A stretch of DNA of 64,000 nt, taken from positions 128,515 through 192,514 of the forward strand of contig JAXLVH010000007.1 in NCBI GenBank assembly GCA_046329105.1, written 5' to 3'. The DNA comes from Flavobacteriales bacterium (GTDB lineage Bacteria; Bacteroidota; Bacteroidia; Flavobacteriales_F; PHOS-HE28). Positions 3,050 through 59,557 of this stretch are shown piece after piece (the stretch's first letter is position 1; each line of letters starts with the position of its first letter). Both the position numbers and the translations under genes were made by a program. The notes beneath the pieces were generated by a model. It was given only the letters and a program-made list of their open reading frames with translations, did no database searches and was not told the DNA's origin.

Positions 3050-3469
3050 GTGTCCCTCGCCCAAACCCAACAAGACCTCGTTGAGGAGTTCGCCCTGTTC
3101 ACGGATTGGCAGGACCGCTACGAACACCTGATCGAATTGGGGAAGGACCTTCCGTTGATCGCACCAGAGAACAAGGTGGATGCGAACCTGGTACGCGGTT
3201 GCCAATCGCGCGTGTGGCTCCATGCGGAACTGAAGAACGGCGTCGTGCATCTCACCGCCGACAGCGATGCCATGATCACCAAAGGCATTGTGGCCCTGCT
3301 CGTTCGCGTGTACAACGACCGTACGCCGCAAGAGATCCTCGGGGCCTCCACGGACTTCATCGACCGGATCGGCCTGCGCGAACACCTGAGTCCCAACCGG
3401 GCGAACGGCCTGAGCGCGATGATCGACCAGATGAAGCGCTACGCACTTGCTTACTCCTCCAACTCATGA
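3050..3469 (+). CDS. sufE: cysteine desulfuration protein SufE
   Basis: 139 aa SufE-fold protein with DWQDRYEHLIELGK and the conserved Cys region (VRGCQSRVWL). Confidence 0.9.
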   Translation: MSLAQTQQDLVEEFALFTDWQDRYEHLIELGKDLPLIAPENKVDANLVRGCQSRVWLHAELKNGVVHLTADSDAMITKGIVALLVRVYNDRTPQEILGASTDFIDRIGLREHLSPNRANGLSAMIDQMKRYALAYSSNS

Positions 3470-3786
3470 CACCCGAGGACAAGCACCAGTTGGAGGAGAG
3501 CATCATCAATGCGCTCAAGTCGGTGTATGATCCGGAGATCCCCGTGGACATCTACGAGCTGGGGCTGATCTACGATGTTGTGGTCCACGACGATGCCAGT
3601 GTGTACATCAAGATGACCCTGACCAGCCCTGCGTGCCCCGTGGCCGGTTCACTGCCCGGTGAGGTGGAACAGAAGGCGGCCGGTGTACAAGGGGTGAAGA
3701 GCGCCAAGGTGGAACTCACCTTCGAGCCGCCTTGGGACCGTACCATGATCAGTGAAGCGGCGCAGTTGGAGCTGGGGTTCATGTGA
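3466..3786 (+). CDS. sufT: SUF-associated DUF59 Fe-S assembly protein (SufT-like)
   Basis: ATG at 3466 overlaps the sufE stop (ATGA). The 106-aa product MTPEDKHQLEESII...TSPACP.. is a typical DUF59/MIP18 protein. The ORF-track entry 3106..3786 is the same frame with a spurious 5' extension. Confidence 0.8.
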   Translation: MTPEDKHQLEESIINALKSVYDPEIPVDIYELGLIYDVVVHDDASVYIKMTLTSPACPVAGSLPGEVEQKAAGVQGVKSAKVELTFEPPWDRTMISEAAQLELGFM

Positions 3787-38444: not shown

Positions 38445-38605
38445 TATTGCAATAGACCTCCGTCCCAATTGCTCAGGGGAATGAAAAAGACTTGTCACGG
38501 TGAGCCTGCCGAACCGGTCCTTGCTTCGCCGTAGCGGCTACGCAAAGGCGCGGTCGATGGGCTCACCGTGACATTCAATAGGAATTACGACGGAGGTCGA
38601 ATGAA
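38445..38605. repeat. palindromic dispersed repeat (R1 family, copy A): TGTCACGGTGAGCC...GGCTCACCGTGACA nested inside outer inverted repeat GACCTCCGTC/GACGGAGGTC
   Basis: Perfect 14-bp inverted repeat. The internal segment GCGCCTTTGCGTAGCCGCTACGGCG is homologous to the tails of copies B and D. Confidence 0.7.
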
Positions 38606-39467: not shown

Positions 39468-39661
39468 CCGCCTGTTCGGGCAGCATGAGCGGCACGCACT
39501 GGTTGAGCCGTACCGGACAATAGCCTCGGGCGGTCACGGGTGAAAGCCTGAACGCCGCCGTGATCATGCCTGCCCGACCTGAGGAATACGGATCGCGGGC
39601 ATCGCCCCCGAACAACCCGAACCGGAAGCAGGGGACCGTACCAGGCGTTCACCCCGCCCGA

Positions 39662-46870: not shown

Positions 46871-47908
46871 ATGAAACGCTGGACCCTCTTCCCGCTCGCC
46901 ATCGCCATAGGCTCGTCTCTTCTGGCACAGGACACGGCACGCGACAGCACCGGCCTGCCCGGCGATCAATTCAACTTGGAAGGCGCGCTCGACCTCTTCA
47001 AGCGGAACCTTGAGATGGAGGGCTTCGAGAAAGCGCTGAACACCGACAGCAACCGGGTGAACAACCTGGACCTGGACGGCAATGGCCGGATCGACTACGT
47101 GCGGGTGGAGACCCAGCGCGAAGGCAACGCGGCCTATGTGGTGATGAAGGTGGCGGTGAGCGCCACCGAGAGCCAGGACGTGGCGGTGATCGCCATTGAA
47201 AAGACCGGCGAGGAGAGTGCCATCCTCCAGATTATCGGCGATGAGGCCCTGTACGGACCGGATGCGATCGTGGAGCCATACGCCGAGGAACAGGGCATGG
47301 CCCCTTCCAAAGGTCCTTCGGCTCCTGAATTGCATGGCTTCTTCGTCACGGTGAACTGCTGGTTCTGGGAGCCGGTGCCCTGGTTCTTCAGCGACCGCTG
47401 GTACGCCTATCACTCACCTTGGTATTGGGGCTACTATCCGCCGTGGTGGAACACATGGGCCCCGTATGACTGGTTCATCTGGCACGGCTGGTGGGGCTAC
47501 CATCACCACTGGTACCGGCCCTGGGGTAGTTGTCGTGTGGGCTCCGCACAAGCGTTGTACCTGCCCCGTCGGGCGCAGAGTGCAATCGTTCGGGAGCGGT
47601 ACCGGGATGTGCGTGCGCGCTATGAGAAGAACCCCGCCCGCCTGCAGAAGGGACCGGCTGACGGCTTGCAGAAAGAGCGGCATGGGAAAGATGCGGTACG
47701 AGAGCGGCCGGTGACCCCGGATCGCCCTCAACGGGCGAAGGCTCCGGAAGCCCGCCCCAGCAAGGAACCGGGCAAGAACGGAGTGGCCCGGCCCGGCAAA
47801 GCACCACGCCAGCCGGAGGCCCGGCCCGCGCGCAGGCCAGCTAAAGCGCGACCCGCACCCGCGCCGCGGCCGACCCCACGTCCTTCGCCACGGCCACGCG
47901 GCAGATAG
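46871..47908 (+). CDS. secreted protein with Trp/Tyr-rich core and Pro/Arg/Ala-rich C-terminal tail
   Basis: Signal peptide, then a WFWEPVPWFF...WYWGYYPPWWNTWAPYDWFIWHGWWGYHHHWYRPWG segment, then PRPxPRP repeats. Confidence 0.5.
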   Translation: MKRWTLFPLAIAIGSSLLAQDTARDSTGLPGDQFNLEGALDLFKRNLEMEGFEKALNTDSNRVNNLDLDGNGRIDYVRVETQREGNAAYVVMKVAVSATESQDVAVIAIEKTGEESAILQIIGDEALYGPDAIVEPYAEEQGMAPSKGPSAPELHGFFVTVNCWFWEPVPWFFSDRWYAYHSPWYWGYYPPWWNTWAPYDWFIWHGWWGYHHHWYRPWGSCRVGSAQALYLPRRAQSAIVRERYRDVRARYEKNPARLQKGPADGLQKERHGKDAVRERPVTPDRPQRAKAPEARPSKEPGKNGVARPGKAPRQPEARPARRPAKARPAPAPRPTPRPSPRPRGR

Positions 47909-48008
47909 GTCCTCCACATACGGGGATAACAGGAGGCTCCCGGTGGTCGTGATCACCGGGGGCCTTCCGCTTTCCGTACTACCCCTTCTTCAGGAAAGCG
48001 TCCCATCC
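47897..48008. repeat. ~112-bp direct repeat, copy 1 (duplicate of thiL 3' end plus terminator hairpin)
   Basis: About 92% identical to 48420..48532. Re-encodes GWDAFLKKG* and the CCCGGTGGTCGTGATCACCGGG hairpin. Confidence 0.8.
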
Positions 48009-48184
48009 TTCCTGCATTCAGTGATCGCCGCGAGTTCCAACCCGATCGTACGCTGCAAGCCTTGATGACCGGGCACATCCGAATTTGATCGGGTGACTCG
48101 CCCAATCCCCCATTCCCGAGCAAAATAGTGTTCAGACCGGCCTGAACGTGCTGAGGATCGCGTATTCAGAAACGATACCGGCTT

Positions 48185-48330
48185 GTTGCAGCGCTTCGGC
48201 AGGCTCAGCGTGACAGCTCATCGGGAGTGTTCAAGAAAAGTGCTCTTGGACACTCATGTCCCCACTGTCACGCTGAGCCCGCCGACTGCGCCTATGCGTA
48301 GCCGCTCCGGCGAAGTGAGGAGCGCCATAC
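48185..48330. repeat. palindromic dispersed repeat (R1 family, copy B): GGCTCAGCGTGACAG-N48-CTGTCACGCTGAGCC + tail GCCGACTGCGCCTATGCGTAGCCGCTCCGGCGAAGTGAGGAGCGCC
   Basis: Perfect 15-bp inverted repeat. Roughly 85% identical to copy D. Confidence 0.8.
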
Positions 48331-48419
48331 TCCCGTTCCCGGCGCTCGTTCCGGATCTTGAACACAAACACTTGCCCTCACCGATCATCTCGGGTGTCCC
48401 GATCGCTGAAAACAGGGCA

Positions 48420-48532
48420 GCGCGGCAGATAGGTCGTCCACATACTGGAATATCAGGAGGCTCCCGGTGGTCGTGATCACCGGGGGCCTTCCGCTTTCCG
48501 TACTACCCCTTTTTCAGGAATGCGTCCCAGCC
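48420..48532. repeat. ~112-bp direct repeat, copy 2 (authentic thiL 3' end and terminator)
   Basis: See 47897..48008. Confidence 0.8.
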
Positions 48533-49546
48533 CTGCGCGCGCAGCTCGTGCTGGCCGCCCTGCTTGTCGATGAGCGCGTACCCGCTGTTCCTGTCGGTCA
48601 TGTACCCGATCACGGTGAGGCTCGGGTTGCCCTTCACCTTGTCGTAGTCGGCCTGGGCGATGGTGAAAAGCAGTTCGTAGTCCTCGCCGCCGTTGAGCGC
48701 GCAGGTCGTGGGGTCCAGGTTGAAATCGCGGGCGGTCTGATAGGTCCCGGGGTCGATCGGTATTTTTTCGTCGTGGATGCGCACGCCAAGGCCCGAACTG
48801 CGAGCCAGGTGTATGGCCTCGCTGGCCAGTCCATCGCTCACGTCGATCATGGCGGTGGGCCGCACATGCAACTGCTTCAGCAGCGCAATGATGTCCCGCC
48901 GGGCTTCGGGCTTCAACTGGCGCTCGAGGATGTAGTCGTGTCCTTCGAGGTCCGGTTGCGCGCTGGTCTCCCGGAACACGGCCTTCTCGCGCTCCAGCAC
49001 CTGGAGGCCCATGTAGGCGCCGCCCAGATCGCCGCTTACCACCAGCAGATCGTGCTCCTTCGCACCGCTGCGGTACGTGATGTCCTCCTTCCGCGCCGCG
49101 CCGATGGCGGTGATACCGATGACCAGCCCGCTGGTGCTGCTGCACGTGTCGCCGCCCACGAGGTCCACGCCATAGTTCTTGCAGGCCAGCAGCATGCCCT
49201 CGTACAACTCGTCGATGGCCTCTACGGGAAAGCGGTTGCTGAGGGCCAGCGCCACCGTCACCTGTCGGGGTTCGGCGTTCATGGCGTACACATCGCTCAG
49301 GTTCACCACGATGGCCTTGTAGCCCAGGTGCTTCAGCGGCACGTAGCCCAGGTCGAAATGGACACCTTCCACCAGCATATCGGTGGTGACCACTTGGTGC
49401 AGGCCCTGCGGATCCAGAACGGCGGCATCATCGCCGATGCCCTTCACCGAGGAGGGATTCGCGAGACGAACGCGGGAGGCGATGCGCTCGATGAGGCCGA
49501 ATTCGCCGAGGGCGGAGAGTTCGGTGCGGGTGGTTGACTCGGACAT
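48503..49546 (-). CDS. thiL: thiamine-monophosphate kinase
   Basis: AIR-synthase-related fold with the GDDAAVL motif. Confidence 0.85.
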   Translation of the reverse strand: MSESTTRTELSALGEFGLIERIASRVRLANPSSVKGIGDDAAVLDPQGLHQVVTTDMLVEGVHFDLGYVPLKHLGYKAIVVNLSDVYAMNAEPRQVTVALALSNRFPVEAIDELYEGMLLACKNYGVDLVGGDTCSSTSGLVIGITAIGAARKEDITYRSGAKEHDLLVVSGDLGGAYMGLQVLEREKAVFRETSAQPDLEGHDYILERQLKPEARRDIIALLKQLHVRPTAMIDVSDGLASEAIHLARSSGLGVRIHDEKIPIDPGTYQTARDFNLDPTTCALNGGEDYELLFTIAQADYDKVKGNPSLTVIGYMTDRNSGYALIDKQGGQHELRAQGWDAFLKKG

Positions 49547-49631
49547 GGTGCGCGAAGCTATCCCTTCAACATCGCGTAGGGCGAGCACGCACGCTGGAAG
49601 CAGGGCCCAACTCCGTACCTTTGAGGCCCAT

Positions 49632-50018: not shown

Positions 50019-50032
50019 ATCGATACAGTATT

Positions 50033-50139
50033 GAGAATGGTGAAAATGGAGAGAAAGTGATATGCCCTGGACGATGATCAACACCTGTAACCTGTAGTCC
50101 CACTTTCTCACCGCCTTCACCACCCTCACCGTTCTCACC
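50033..50139. repeat. cargo-less copy of the GGTGA-rich / CACC-rich complementary bracket motifs
   Basis: Left arm GAGAATGGTGAAAATGGAGAGAAAGTGA and right arm CCACTTTCTCACCGCCTTCACCACCCTCACCGTTCTCACC are separated by 38 bp. Same architecture as the brackets around 2537..3007. Confidence 0.6.
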
Positions 50140-50148
50140 CGCATTCCT

Positions 50149-51610: not shown

Positions 51611-52054
51611 GTGACCGTGTTCCGGCCGACGGCTGTCGCCATTTCATCCTATGCGGCCATCGGCCCCCAATGGTCATCTGCCTGGAACTGCTCGAGGACC
51701 GAGCGCCGCAACTTTGTCAAGGCCTTGCACTTGGCTGTCTCCGCCGAATTGGCACTGGGAGGCTCTATGTCGAATACAGTGGGTAGTCGAACTTGAGCTT
51801 ACCGGTGAGGAAGTATATCACGTTGATGATGTTTTGGATATTCAGGTAGCCCCTTGCCCTTGCTCTGGCGAGTTGGACCTTTGAATTGATCCCTTCGCGG
51901 ATCCCGTTGGAGAAGTGGTACTTGGTGTGGTTGGTGATGCCAGCCCAATACTGGGCAACGGTCTTCGCGAACTTGACAAAAGGGCCAATGGCTGCATCGG
52001 CGGCCAAGTCACACCAGAAGGCCAGGAAGCTCCTGTTTTAACTAAATGGGTCAC
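51611..52054 (-). mobile_element. ISL3-family insertion-sequence remnant
   Basis: It contains the transposase C-terminal fragment listed next. No intact transposase or clear terminal inverted repeats were found. Confidence 0.55.
51765..52007 (-). pseudogene. ISL3-family transposase, C-terminal ~80-aa fragment
   Basis: ...ITNHTKYHFSNGIREGINSKVQLARARARGYLNIQNIINVIYF matches the conserved ISL3 transposase C-terminus (NxxxEGxNxKIKxxKRxAxGYRN). The N-terminus is absent. Confidence 0.6.
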
Positions 52055-52177
52055 CCAAAGTCGATACGGAAGGTTTTGAGCAGTAGTTGTTGGTCTTGGG
52101 TCTTGGCCAGGATCCTGGTCTGGGAGCGGCCTGAAGCCTGGTCATGGATGGTGATGCCATAGACCATTGCGAGGCAT

Positions 52178-52420
52178 TCAAGGCTCCGCGTCAGCAATGG
52201 CGTGGCCTCATTGAAATCTGCCGAAGCGCTTCGACGGGCTCAGCGTGACATTTCAGGTGCCGCGTCGGCAAGAACGCGACCTCATTGAAACGGTGTGTGG
52301 CGATGTTCCCACGGAACATGGGCTCCACGTCAGCAATCGTATGGCGTCATTGAAACCCGTCGAAGCGGTGAGCTTGCCGAACCGTCGACGGGCTCAGCGT
52401 GACATTTCGGGCTCCACGTC
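52178..52420. repeat. ~139-bp tandem repeat (about 2.1 copies) ending in GGCTCAGCGTGACATTTC
   Basis: Units begin near 52181, 52320 and 52410 (GGGCTCCACGTCAGCAAT...CATTGAAA...CGACGGGCTCAGCGTGACATTTC). They share the R1 core GGCTCAGCGTGACA. Confidence 0.7.
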
Positions 52421-54953: not shown

Positions 54954-55085
54954 GGCCGGCGGACTTCACGGTTCGGTGGGCTCGCCGCGACACGCCTTTG
55001 TGATCATCCAGGGCGATCGGCATGGAGAAGCATCCAATGAACGCCCCGCGGGATATCGGCGGGGCGTTCGCGTTCACCTGCTTCC
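54954..55085. repeat. ~131-bp direct repeat, copy 1 (duplicate of arsC 3'-flank/terminator)
   Basis: About 88% identical to 55423..55553. Contains a strong hairpin GAACGCCCCGC-gggatatcg-GCGGGGCGTTC. Confidence 0.8.
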
Positions 55086-55274
55086 TGTTTCCAGTGATCG
55101 GGATACCCGTGGCGATCCGCGAGGGCAAAAATTCGTGGTCAAGCGGGCAGGTCAGGTCCGAATACCCGACCCAAGAACGGAAGTGCCCGTCCATCAGCGC
55201 TTGTAGCGCGGGATAGCGCCAGGAGCCGGGATGAGTACTGGGAACAGGAGTATGACGCTTCGGCCCTTCCGGTG

Positions 55275-55410
55275 TCAGGGCAGGCTCGCTCAGCGTGACA
55301 GTTCATAGGGAGTAATAGAACAGTGCTCGTGGACACCCATGACCCCACTGTCACGCTGAGCCGGCCGACTGCGCCTATGCGTAGCCGCTCCGGCGATGCG
55401 AGGAGCGCTA
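55275..55410. repeat. palindromic dispersed repeat (R1 family, copy D)
   Basis: GGCTCGCTCAGCGTGACAG-N45-CTGTCACGCTGAGCC + GGCCGACTGCGCCTATGCGTAGCCGCTCCGGCGATGCGAGGAGCGC. Confidence 0.8.
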
Positions 55411-55422
55411 CAACAAGCCGGT

Positions 55423-55553
55423 ATCGGCGGACTTCACGGTTCGAGGGGCTCGTCGGGACACGCCCTTGTGATCATCCTGGGCGATCGGCAAGGAGGTGCA
55501 TCAAATGAATGCCCCGTGGAATATCGGCGGGGCGTTCGCGCTCACCTGCTTCA
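55423..55553. repeat. ~131-bp direct repeat, copy 2 (abuts the arsC stop)
   Basis: See 54954..55085. Confidence 0.8.
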
Positions 55554-55913
55554 CTTCAACTTCTTCCCGGCGGCGATCATGCCCTCCACGGCCGCCTTCG
55601 TGTTGCCGATGTGGATCGCATCACCCACCACCATCACCGGGCGCTTCAGGAAGGTATACTCCTGCAGGATGTATATGCGGTAGTCCTTCTCGGTGAGCCG
55701 TTTTTCGTGCAAGCCCAGCGGCCGGTATTTCATGGACCGACGGCTGAACAACGCTTCGTAGCTGCCGGCCAACTCCTTCATCCCGTCCAGTTCTTCCGCG
55801 GTGATCGGAGCACTCTTGATCTCGCGCAGGGTGAATTTCCCAAGGTTCGGTATGGAGCCGAGGATGCGCTGGCACGTGCTGCAGGTGGCCAGGTGGTAGA
55901 TGGTCGCGGGCAT
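55551..55913 (-). CDS. ArsC/Spx-family thiol reductase (YffB-like)
   Basis: N-terminal IYHLATCSTCQ with the catalytic Cys in the ArsC-family context. 120 aa. Confidence 0.75.
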   Translation of the reverse strand: MPATIYHLATCSTCQRILGSIPNLGKFTLREIKSAPITAEELDGMKELAGSYEALFSRRSMKYRPLGLHEKRLTEKDYRIYILQEYTFLKRPVMVVGDAIHIGNTKAAVEGMIAAGKKLK

Positions 55914-56091
55914 GCTGGAAGAAGCCTTTTCCGTGCGGTGAACGCGGCGAAGATGGGGCATGATACGCGGTCGGATCATTTTTGACCCCGCCACCCATCC
56001 CTGCAAGTTCCCGTTCATCACATTGGAAACATTTTTCCTTACATAATGTTTCCTGTGTTCCGATGGCATCTATTTTTGCGCTCCCTGAACG

Positions 56092-59361: not shown

Positions 59362-59557
59362 GGAACATCCTCACCACAGAGGCACAGAGGACACAGAGAA
59401 AGACCACATGAAGCGGCAAGGAGCGGATCAGCGAGTGCGAGTTGCATTTCTCGGTGTCTCCGTGCATCTGTGGTGAACACGAATTGAACAATGGCCCCAG
59501 CAGCCCAAGCGCATTCCTCCGTGCCCTCTGTGCCTCTGTGGTGAAAAGCATTCCAGC

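What the first reader, a model, noticed from the sequence alone, without database searches (positions are those of the whole stretch)
47897..48532. An entire convergent 3' intergenic region (thiL end plus terminator) is duplicated 525 bp apart, flanking a 415-bp insert that carries an R1 repeat
47897..48008 and 48420..48532 are about 92% identical. Each contains the last four codons of the plus-strand gene (CGCGGCAGATAG), the hairpin CCCGGTGGTCGTGATCACCGGG, and the last nine codons of thiL on the minus strand (GWDAFLKKG*). Only the second copy is attached to a real thiL. The insert between them (48009..48419) carries R1 copy B. A 112-bp flanking direct repeat is far too long for an ordinary transposase target-site duplication. 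It fits better with Campbell-type integration of a small element carrying a homologous segment, or with a replicative/recombinational insertion mechanism. The ~8% divergence between copies says the event is not recent.
Basis: seen in the sequence. Interest (0 to 1): 0.6.

Follow-up and report, generated by a model that had tools for sequence, protein, structure and literature searches.

The report
Mini-transposon making 100-bp target duplications
The duplicated gene-end segment is the footprint of a ~400-bp non-coding mobile element that copies 55-130 bp of its target when it inserts; only two insertion sequences (IS1549, IS1634) are known to do this, and the same bacterium carries a transposase of that family whose element starts with the same eight bases.

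Summary
47897-48010 and 48421-48534 are a 114-nt direct repeat (93% identical) holding the end of the plus-strand gene, a strong hairpin and the end of thiL. They flank a 406-nt insert.

The insert is a discrete mobile unit: it has 17-nt terminal inverted repeats (CCTG(C/T)(A/T)TTCAG(T/C)GATCG) and a central "R1" hairpin. A second copy in the window (55084-55426, opposite orientation) is flanked by an unrelated 128-nt repeat. A third, in a metagenome contig, is flanked by a 55-nt repeat. All three repeats sit flush with the element ends. R1 copies without the arms have no flanking repeats.

So these are target-site duplications, long and variable in length. They are not attachment sites of a Campbell-type integration.

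About 9 kb beyond the window, two strains of the same species carry an insertion sequence. Its transposase N-terminus matches only the IS1634 family (E=9e-24), and its first 8 nt (CCTGTTTT) equal the small element's terminus. IS1634 and IS1549 are the known makers of long, variable duplications.

Two apparent "empty-site" contigs are probably assembly artefacts. No true pre-insertion site was found. The transposase link is inferred, not shown.

Verdict: new variant of a known kind, moderate interest.

The parts
46871..47908 (+). Gene A: 345-aa protein of unknown function, whose 3' end lies in the left repeat copy
   Evidence: ORF list. Homologues occur only in related Flavobacteriales and none has a Pfam hit.
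47897..48010 (.). Left copy of the 114-nt target-site duplication. It holds the end of gene A, a 14-bp hairpin at 47932-47967, and a detached copy of the thiL end (47979-48008).
48011..48416 (+). Non-autonomous element, copy A (406 nt), bounded by 17-nt terminal inverted repeats
   Evidence: Homology to the L027 copy begins and ends exactly here. The TIRs match 15/17. The flanking repeats are flush.
48011..48027 (+). Left terminal inverted repeat, CCTGCATTCAGTGATCG
48173..48195 (+). 'Outer stem' module CGATACCGGCTTGTTGCAGCGCT, shared by copies A, B, L026, L027 and L029
48196..48325 (+). R1: central palindrome (21-nt arms at 48196-48216 and 48265-48285) plus a 40-nt appendix
   Evidence: Inverted repeat I1. 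The L027 copy has a 25-bp perfect stem.
48328..48416 (+). Miniature unit with a degenerate left-type terminus and the right arm. It is homologous to 55084-55252 in inverse orientation.
48400..48416 (-). Right terminal inverted repeat, CCTGTTTTCAGCGATCG read inward
48421..48534 (.). Right copy of the 114-nt duplication. It holds a detached copy of the gene A end, the hairpin, and the real thiL end.
48503..49546 (-). thiL (thiamine-phosphate kinase, 347 aa)
   Evidence: PF00586 and source names
54957..55084 (.). Locus B: left copy of a 128-nt target duplication that contains an 11-bp GC hairpin
55084..55426 (-). Element copy B, inverted relative to A. It comprises a miniature unit with both termini (55084-55252), R1 (55260-55403) and the outer stem (55404-55426). 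The long left arm is missing, so this copy is truncated.
   Evidence: It is collinear with A once R1 is flipped. Flush repeats. The same structure appears in many strains.
55425..55552 (.). Locus B: right copy of the 128-nt duplication, abutting the stop codon of the ArsC-family gene (55551-56018, minus strand)

Best explanation
The 524-bp structure is the insertion of a ~406-nt non-coding, MITE-like transposable element: terminal inverted repeats, two arms and a central R1 hairpin. It lies between two convergent genes.

On insertion, the two element ends were joined to the two target strands about 114 nt apart instead of the usual 2-13 nt. Repair of the single-stranded gaps then duplicated the whole interval, namely both gene ends and their shared hairpin. 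Each gene therefore kept an intact 3' end and its own hairpin copy, which is probably why the insertion was tolerated and became fixed.

The element has no gene of its own. It is most likely moved in trans by an IS1634-family DDE transposase resident in the same species. Two members of that family, IS1549 and IS1634, are known to make long, variable-length duplications.

Shown:
- the element boundaries and inverted repeats;
- flush long repeats at three unrelated sites;
- an IS1634-family IS with a matching 8-nt terminus in the same species.

Inferred:
- that this transposase mobilises the element;
- the staggered-attack and gap-repair steps;
- that later homologous recombination through the 58-nt identical core reshaped the two copies.
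For: 1. Discrete element. The L027 copy matches 48009-48416 at about 90% and similarity stops exactly at the termini. The termini are inverted repeats matching 15/17.

2. Three independent sites with unrelated flanking repeats, all flush with the element. Local alignment scores are 98 (A, 112-114 nt), 100 (B, 128 nt) and 39 (L027, 55 nt), against a shuffle maximum of 15-18. R1-only copies score 9, which is background.

3. Copies A and B are collinear in opposite orientation. Further partial copies occur in other contexts (L026, L029).

4. No conserved coding capacity. Reading frames are broken between copies, the protein database has no relatives and there is no Rfam or tRNA hit.

5. Same species (99.4-99.8% identical over 12-14 kb): contigs L036 and L037 carry a strain-specific IS inserted in a 228-aa ORF that is intact in nine other strains.
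- Its 496-aa product has PF01609.
- Its first 186 aa match only NCBIfam NF033559, IS1634 family transposase, at E=8.9e-24.
- The IS starts CCTGTTTT, the same 8 nt as the element terminus (chance about 1.5e-5 per comparison; my arithmetic).
- A second TIR-like motif lies 41 nt inside it.
- Four of the five element termini compared, and the IS terminus, fit the family's terminal consensus C-----YT (PMC2266710).

6. [quoted passage not shown]
Against: - No verified empty site exists for any copy. The two 'empty' contigs (L007, L055) are exact DR1-left/DR2-right hybrids. In the junction region they are almost or fully identical to the window (L055: 0 differences in 3,826 nt; L007: 1 in about 1,060 nt). 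Both come from Logan, which to my knowledge assembles with k=31, and the repeat core is 58 nt. They are therefore probably graph artefacts, or secondary deletions.
- In the nearest relatives a ~520-aa gene lies between gene A and thiL, so no orthologous site can be compared.
- Beyond 8 nt and one subterminal motif, the IS end cannot be aligned with the element arms. The element is therefore not a simple deletion derivative of this IS copy.
- The IS's own duplication could not be seen, because its right end was out of reach.
- Most IS1634-family members make only 5-6 bp duplications.
- Copy B lacks one terminus, so its 128-nt repeat needs a later deletion to be explained.
- Only three insertions have both flanks available.
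- The transposase match (84 bits) is below the curated full-length cut-off of 100 bits, because only 186 of 496 residues were available.
Confidence: 0.65

Rival explanations
1. Campbell-type integration. A small circular element carrying a diverged copy of the gene A-end/hairpin/thiL-end segment recombined with the chromosomal segment by a single crossover. This would leave the two hybrid repeats.
For: All differences between the copies lie in the two inner halves next to the insert, exactly as a single crossover in the 58-nt identical core predicts. The three thiL-end differences are all synonymous (P about 0.008), as expected if the incoming segment came from a functional allele of another strain. 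Recombination mosaics are common at this locus.
Against: It cannot be the primary mechanism. The same element sits at two other sites with unrelated flush repeats of 128 and 55 nt, and one element cannot carry homology to all of them. No recombinase gene lies in or near the insert. At most it describes how an already-made insertion spread between strains, or how its flanks were later replaced.
Confidence: 0.1
2. The duplication is real target duplication, but it is made by something other than an IS1634-type transposase. Possibilities are another DDE family, or a replication- or repair-coupled process such as template switching at stalled forks near terminator hairpins, or a target-primed mechanism giving variable duplications and truncated copies.
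For: The IS and the element share only 8 terminal nt. Copy B is truncated at one end, like a 5'-truncated target-primed insertion. Both window targets contain very stable hairpins, and in locus A the hairpin is within about 4 nt of the centre of the duplication. An ISL3 transposase remnant also lies in the window.
Against: Clear terminal inverted repeats flush with the duplications point to a DDE cut/copy-and-paste reaction. No reverse transcriptase or poly-A-like tail was seen. ISL3 elements make 8-bp duplications (my own knowledge). The only family documented to make such repeats is the one found in this species. The L027 target has no strong hairpin.
Confidence: 0.17
3. Two-step origin without a special enzyme. 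Either a pre-existing tandem duplication was later hit by an ordinary insertion at its junction, or two nearby insertions on sister chromosomes were followed by unequal crossing-over.
For: Either route can in principle yield repeat-element-repeat.
Against: It would have to happen three times, each time with the repeats ending exactly at the element termini. No tandem duplication lacking an insert was seen in 64 kb plus about 230 kb of related loci.
Confidence: 0.04
4. Assembly artefact: an expanded or collapsed repeat.
For: None for the filled structure. The opposite artefact (loop skipping) probably explains the 'empty' contigs L007 and L055.
Against: The filled structure recurs at 98-100% identity in at least 10 samples assembled with MEGAHIT and SPAdes-type assemblers and in JGI and NCBI records. 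The copies differ at 8 positions.
Confidence: 0.01

Closest known systems
IS1549 (Mycobacterium smegmatis) and IS1634 (Mycoplasma mycoides), IS1634 family
   Same: Insertion creates long direct repeats of variable length: 8-514 bp reported (PMC2266710), 55-128 nt here. An IS1634-family transposase is present in the same species. The termini fit the family consensus C-----YT.
   Different: Those are 1.5-2 kb autonomous elements in Actinobacteria and Mollicutes. This is a 406-nt non-coding element in an uncultured high-GC Flavobacteriales bacterium. Mobilisation by the family's transposase is inferred, not shown.
[quoted passage not shown]
   Same: Under 500 bp, terminal inverted repeats, no gene, intergenic location, folds into a long hairpin, several copies, flanking direct repeats (PMC10969869).
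   Different: MITE duplications are normally 2-10 bp (my own knowledge). The review I read (PMC10969869) does not mention long ones. Here they are 55-128 nt and include whole gene ends and a hairpin. The element is not AT-rich (57-60% GC).
REP / BIME palindromic repeats
   Same: R1 is a GC-rich palindrome scattered in intergenic regions, sometimes clustered. One copy has changes on both arms that keep the pairing.
   Different: REP/BIME are not flanked by target duplications. Here R1 is only the central module of the element, and R1 alone shows no duplication. No REP-associated transposase was looked for.
Integrative elements and cis-mobilisable elements that duplicate a gene 3' end at their attachment sites
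   Same: A gene 3' end is repeated on both sides of an insert, so the gene stays intact.
   Different: Those use one conserved attachment sequence and a site-specific recombinase. Here the repeat differs at every site, no recombinase is present, and the insert is only 0.4 kb.

Membership tests
MITE (non-autonomous TIR element) | Small size (under about 500-600 bp) with terminal inverted repeats | tested here: met
   406 nt; TIRs match 15/17. Boundaries are confirmed by the independent copy L027.
MITE (non-autonomous TIR element) | No transposase or other conserved coding capacity | tested here: met
   Only short ORFs, broken by frameshifts between copies. No relatives in the protein database.
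MITE (non-autonomous TIR element) | Several copies at different loci, each flanked by a duplication of its own target | tested here: met
   A, B and L027 have flush, unrelated repeats. Partial copies occur in L026 and L029. The duplication length is atypical.
MITE (non-autonomous TIR element) | A cognate autonomous IS with matching termini in the same or a related genome | tested here: inconclusive
   An IS1634-family IS in the same species shares the first 8 nt and one subterminal motif, but no longer homology. Its right end was not available.
IS1634-family-mobilised element | IS1634-family DDE transposase available in the host | tested here: met
   NF033559, E=8.9e-24, the only hit, on 186 N-terminal residues (84 bits; the 100-bit cut-off is for the whole protein). 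PF01609 on the full 496-aa product. The host is 99.4-99.8% identical to the window.
IS1634-family-mobilised element | Terminal consensus C-----YT (PMC2266710) | tested here: met
   CCTGTTTT, CCTGCATT and CCTGCTTT fit; the copy B terminus CCTGTTTC does not. This is a weak criterion, about 1/32 by chance.
IS1634-family-mobilised element | Transposase shown to bind and move the element | not testable with these tools
   Needs a transposition or binding assay.
Campbell-type integrative element / cis-mobilisable element | The same attachment core at every insertion site, and a site-specific recombinase | tested here: not met
   The flanking repeats of the three sites are unrelated. No recombinase gene among the neighbours.
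Diversity-generating retroelement (template/variable repeat pair) | Mismatches confined to adenines of one copy; reverse transcriptase nearby | tested here: not met
   The mismatch spectrum is mixed (C/G, G/T, G/A, A/T, C/T, T/G). No reverse-transcriptase family appears among the precomputed Pfam hits of the neighbouring genes.
REP/BIME (for R1 only) | Short GC-rich palindrome repeated in intergenic regions, associated with a REP-type tyrosine transposase | tested here: inconclusive
   Palindrome and dispersion confirmed. The associated transposase was not searched for.

The most novel reading that the evidence does not exclude
This is the first non-autonomous (MITE-type) partner of the long-duplication transposition mode of the IS1634 family. 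It occurs in Bacteroidota and preferentially lands just downstream of genes. Because it duplicates 55-130 nt, including gene ends and hairpins, it insulates both neighbours and leaves repeats long enough for scarless excision by homologous recombination. A 400-nt element plus one transposase would be a minimal system for working out how the two strand transfers become uncoupled by tens to hundreds of base pairs. That question has been open since 1998.
Probability: 0.45. Interest if true: 0.65.

Novelty: new variant of a known kind. Interest (0 to 1): 0.55.

Why it matters
Long, variable target duplications are a rare and unexplained mode of transposition, known from two insertion sequences described in 1998-99. 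A short non-coding element showing the same behaviour, next to a candidate transposase, in an abundant wastewater Flavobacteriales lineage has three consequences.

1. It extends the phenomenon to a new phylum and to non-autonomous elements.
2. It offers a small, tractable substrate for biochemical study.
3. It shows a practical effect. Such insertions copy gene 3' ends and hairpins, create pseudo gene ends that confuse annotation, escape MITE-finding software that expects 2-10 bp duplications, and produce repeat-bounded loops that small-k assemblers silently delete.

Tried and rejected
- Empty site. L007 and L055 look like pre-insertion alleles. Both are exact hybrids of the two copies, (near-)identical to the window around the junction (L007 diverges only in the 5' 270 nt of thiL), and both come from the Logan collection (k=31, to my knowledge). 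I rejected them as evidence of the pre-insertion state.
- Outgroups. ThiL relatives at 85-90% identity and gene A relatives at 72-74% have different gene order, with a ~520-aa gene between gene A and thiL. No orthologous site exists in them.
- Genome-collection scan with the 20-nt terminus: 9 hits in unrelated phyla, matching only 20-21 nt, which is chance. The species is not in that collection.
- Metagenome scan with a 22-nt element-specific stretch: useful (L026, L027, L029). L024 and L028 are chance hits inside genes.
- A terminus-like hit at window 1676 lies inside a coding gene and is chance.
- Viral contigs and plasmids: nothing.
- Searching the protein database with a profile of the open frame that crosses the left arm: no hits.
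- Rfam and tRNA scans of the window: nothing.
- The simple terminator scan does not call the hairpins inside the duplications, because they lack a T-run. 'Terminator' is therefore an inference.
- DGR-type repeat pair: rejected on the mismatch spectrum.
- An 86-nt repeat pair in L036 turned out to be an unrelated 82-nt tandem array.
- The primary IS1549 and IS1634 papers are not held in the library. Their results are cited through PMC2266710.

Full report
**1.

The window contains a direct repeat reported as 47889-48008 / 48413-48532 (120 nt, 92%; BLAST E=4e-45). Base-by-base comparison places the real repeat at 47897-48010 / 48421-48534. That is 114 nt with 8 mismatches and a 58-nt identical core at 47930-47987.

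Each copy holds three things:
- the last three codons and stop of a 345-aa plus-strand gene ('gene A', 46871-47908);
- a hairpin with a 14-bp stem;
- the last nine codons and stop of thiL on the minus strand (GWDAFLKKG*).

Only the left copy is joined to gene A and only the right copy to thiL (48503-49546). The same structure occurs at 98-100% identity in contigs from at least ten samples built with different assemblers. It is therefore not an assembly artefact. The source is an uncultured high-GC Flavobacteriales bacterium from activated sludge and wastewater.

**2. The window holds a second case**

54957-55084 and 55425-55552 are a 128-nt repeat (89%) around a 340-nt insert that carries the same 'R1' repeat. 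It lies between another convergent gene pair, a DUF4890 gene and an ArsC-family gene. The two flanking repeats are unrelated to each other.

**3. The insert is a discrete element**

Insert A begins CCTGCATTCAGTGATCG (48011) and ends with the inverse of CCTGTTTTCAGCGATCG (48416), a 15/17 terminal inverted repeat.

Insert B begins with the same terminus, and its first 60 nt match the inverse of A's right end. When the palindromic R1 core is flipped, A (plus strand) and B (minus strand) are collinear: a 23-nt 'outer stem', then R1, then a miniature unit ending in the terminus. A has a further 162-nt left arm (48011-48172) that B lacks.

A metagenome scan with a 22-nt element-specific stretch found contig L027. 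It carries a full copy about 90% identical to A, apart from a 35-nt indel. Similarity starts and stops exactly at the two termini and the surrounding genes are unrelated.

Partial copies in yet other contexts occur in L026 and L029. L029 is best read as a chimera or recombinant between the locus B copy and another copy next to a Cys/Met-metabolism gene.

The element folds into a long hairpin with R1 at its centre. It has no conserved reading frame, no Rfam or tRNA match, and a base composition like the host's.

**4. The long repeats are target-site duplications**

For A, B and L027, the best local alignment between the 250 nt on either side of the element scores 98, 100 and 39, against shuffle maxima of 15-18. 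In each case the two repeat copies end flush with the element. The lengths are 112-114, 128 and 55 nt.

R1 copies that lack the arms (38493-38573; the cluster at 52225-52410) score 9, which is background. No other long repeat pair exists in the window or in about 230 kb of related loci.

Three unrelated sites, each with its own local sequence duplicated flush against the same termini, is what transposition with target duplication produces. An element integrating through a carried homologous segment would not produce it.

Copy B lacks one terminus. The simplest reading is a later deletion that removed the left arm and the start of the right repeat copy, so 128 nt is a minimum.

**5. A candidate enzyme**

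From memory, and confirmed in PMC2266710, the only bacterial elements known to make long, variable duplications are IS1549 and IS1634 (8-514 bp). [quoted passage not shown]

Extending past the window's right end with a window-encoded protein gave contig L036, which is 99.4% identical to the window over 13.9 kb. There, a 228-aa ORF that is intact in nine other strains is interrupted by an IS. An NCBI MAG contig of the same species (L037, 99.8%) breaks 53 nt into the same IS, as expected of a multi-copy repeat.

The IS gene product is 496 aa with PF01609. Its first 186 residues match a single NCBIfam model, NF033559 'IS1634 family transposase' (E=8.9e-24, profile positions 8-157 of 483).

Alignment with the empty site shows the IS starts CCTGTTTTGAACAG. 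Its first 8 nt equal the small element's terminus CCTGTTTT. A second terminus-like motif (CCTGTATCCCGTGATAG) lies 41 nt inside. These termini fit the family consensus C-----YT.

Beyond that the IS end and the element arms do not align. The IS's right end and its own duplication were out of reach. The link is therefore suggestive, not proven.

**6. Most likely mechanism**

Shown: element anatomy, flush long duplications, family of the resident transposase.

Inferred:
- The transposase binds the element termini in trans.
- The two strand transfers hit the two target strands 55-130 nt apart rather than 2-13 nt apart.
- Host repair fills the gaps and duplicates the interval.

Between convergent genes this copies both 3' ends and the hairpin, so neither gene is damaged. 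That would explain why both window copies sit in such places and are fixed in all strains.

Both window targets contain very stable hairpins, and in locus A the hairpin lies within about 4 nt of the centre of the duplication. The L027 target has no strong hairpin, so I do not claim structure-directed targeting.

**7. The 'empty sites' and the divergence of the copies**

Two contigs (L007, L055) join gene A to thiL through a single repeat copy. Both equal the left copy on the gene A side and the right copy on the thiL side. L055 has 0 mismatches in 3,826 nt to the window with the loop removed. L007 has 1 in about 1,060 nt around the junction, plus a 20%-divergent mosaic tract at the far (5') end of thiL.

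Strains that close cannot pre-date an insertion whose repeats differ by 7-8%. Both contigs come from the Logan collection, which to my knowledge assembles with k=31, while the identical core is 58 nt. Eight contigs from large-k assemblies carry the insert. They are therefore either graph loop-skips or real secondary deletions through the core. Neither is a pre-insertion state.

True outgroups do not exist, because relatives have a ~520-aa gene between gene A and thiL.

All differences between the two copies lie in the detached inner halves. The three in the thiL end are synonymous (P about 0.008), with at least one change on each copy according to outgroups. This suggests that recombination tracts ending in the core, which are frequent at this locus, contributed to the divergence. 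The 7-8% figure therefore overstates the age.

**8. Comparison and verdict**

The element meets the tested definitions of a MITE, except that its duplications are ten times longer than usual. Its behaviour matches the atypical IS1634-family members. It fails the tests for an attachment-site integrative element and for a DGR repeat pair.

The papers I could search, including a 2024 review of prokaryotic MITEs, do not describe a non-autonomous element with such duplications.

I rate it a new variant of a known kind, of moderate interest. The main gaps are the unproven transposase-element link, the small number of complete insertions (three) and the lack of a verified empty site.

Noticed in passing
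L036:22834-23534 and L037:20202-20254 (about 9 kb beyond the window's right end): A strain-specific insertion of an IS1634-family IS inside a 228-aa ORF downstream of ruvB. The ORF is intact in nine other strains, which give the empty site ...CAGCCCCAATTT^GATCCCGG.
   Followed up: partly
window 51765-52007 (minus strand): An 80-aa C-terminal remnant of an ISL3-family transposase (PF01610) in a lower-GC patch (52%), next to a cluster of R1-like repeats.
   Followed up: partly
window 52100-52420: A cluster of R1 arms (CGACGGGCTCAGCGTGACATTTC, twice) interleaved with a ~75-nt unit (...GTCAGCAA...CATTGAAA). Strain L002 has an extra ~155-nt block here (its positions 3106-3160 and 3261-3315 are identical).
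   Followed up: no
window 38493-38573: An R1-only copy in which both arms read CACGGTGAG/CTCACCGTG instead of CACGCTGAG/CTCAGCGTG. The change on both sides keeps the hairpin.
   Followed up: no
window 50019-50148 versus L036:224-591: Between the Fe-S assembly gene and sufB, strain L036 has four tandem copies of an ~82-nt unit (…GAACAGGGAATTCGCATTCTCCGTGTCCTCTGCGCCTCTGTGGTGAAGC…). The unit is related to window 59371-59553. The window carries the short allele.
   Followed up: partly
window 48868-49117 and 49327-49598 (thiL): Recombination mosaics. Strain L022 differs at 23 of ~250 nt in the first tract. Contig L007 differs by 20% in the second. Both are otherwise nearly identical to the window.
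   Followed up: partly
window 47909-48502 versus L031, L034, L009, L011: In related species a ~505-527-aa secreted (Por_Secre_tail) protein gene lies between gene A and thiL. This species has lost it, so the gene A/thiL junction is lineage-specific.
   Followed up: partly
window 39486-39515 versus L004:10436-10623: Strain L004 carries a ~186-nt insertion or rearrangement relative to the window.
   Followed up: no
L027:1-114 and 3641-3754: The contig that holds the third element copy has identical 114-nt ends. It may be a circular 3.64-kb molecule, or it may end in a repeat.
   Followed up: no
window 55042, 55049 versus 55510, 55517: In locus B the right repeat copy has two C-to-T changes in one arm of the hairpin. 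They would keep G-U pairs in a plus-strand RNA but give A-C mismatches in the minus-strand (ArsC-side) transcript.
   Followed up: no
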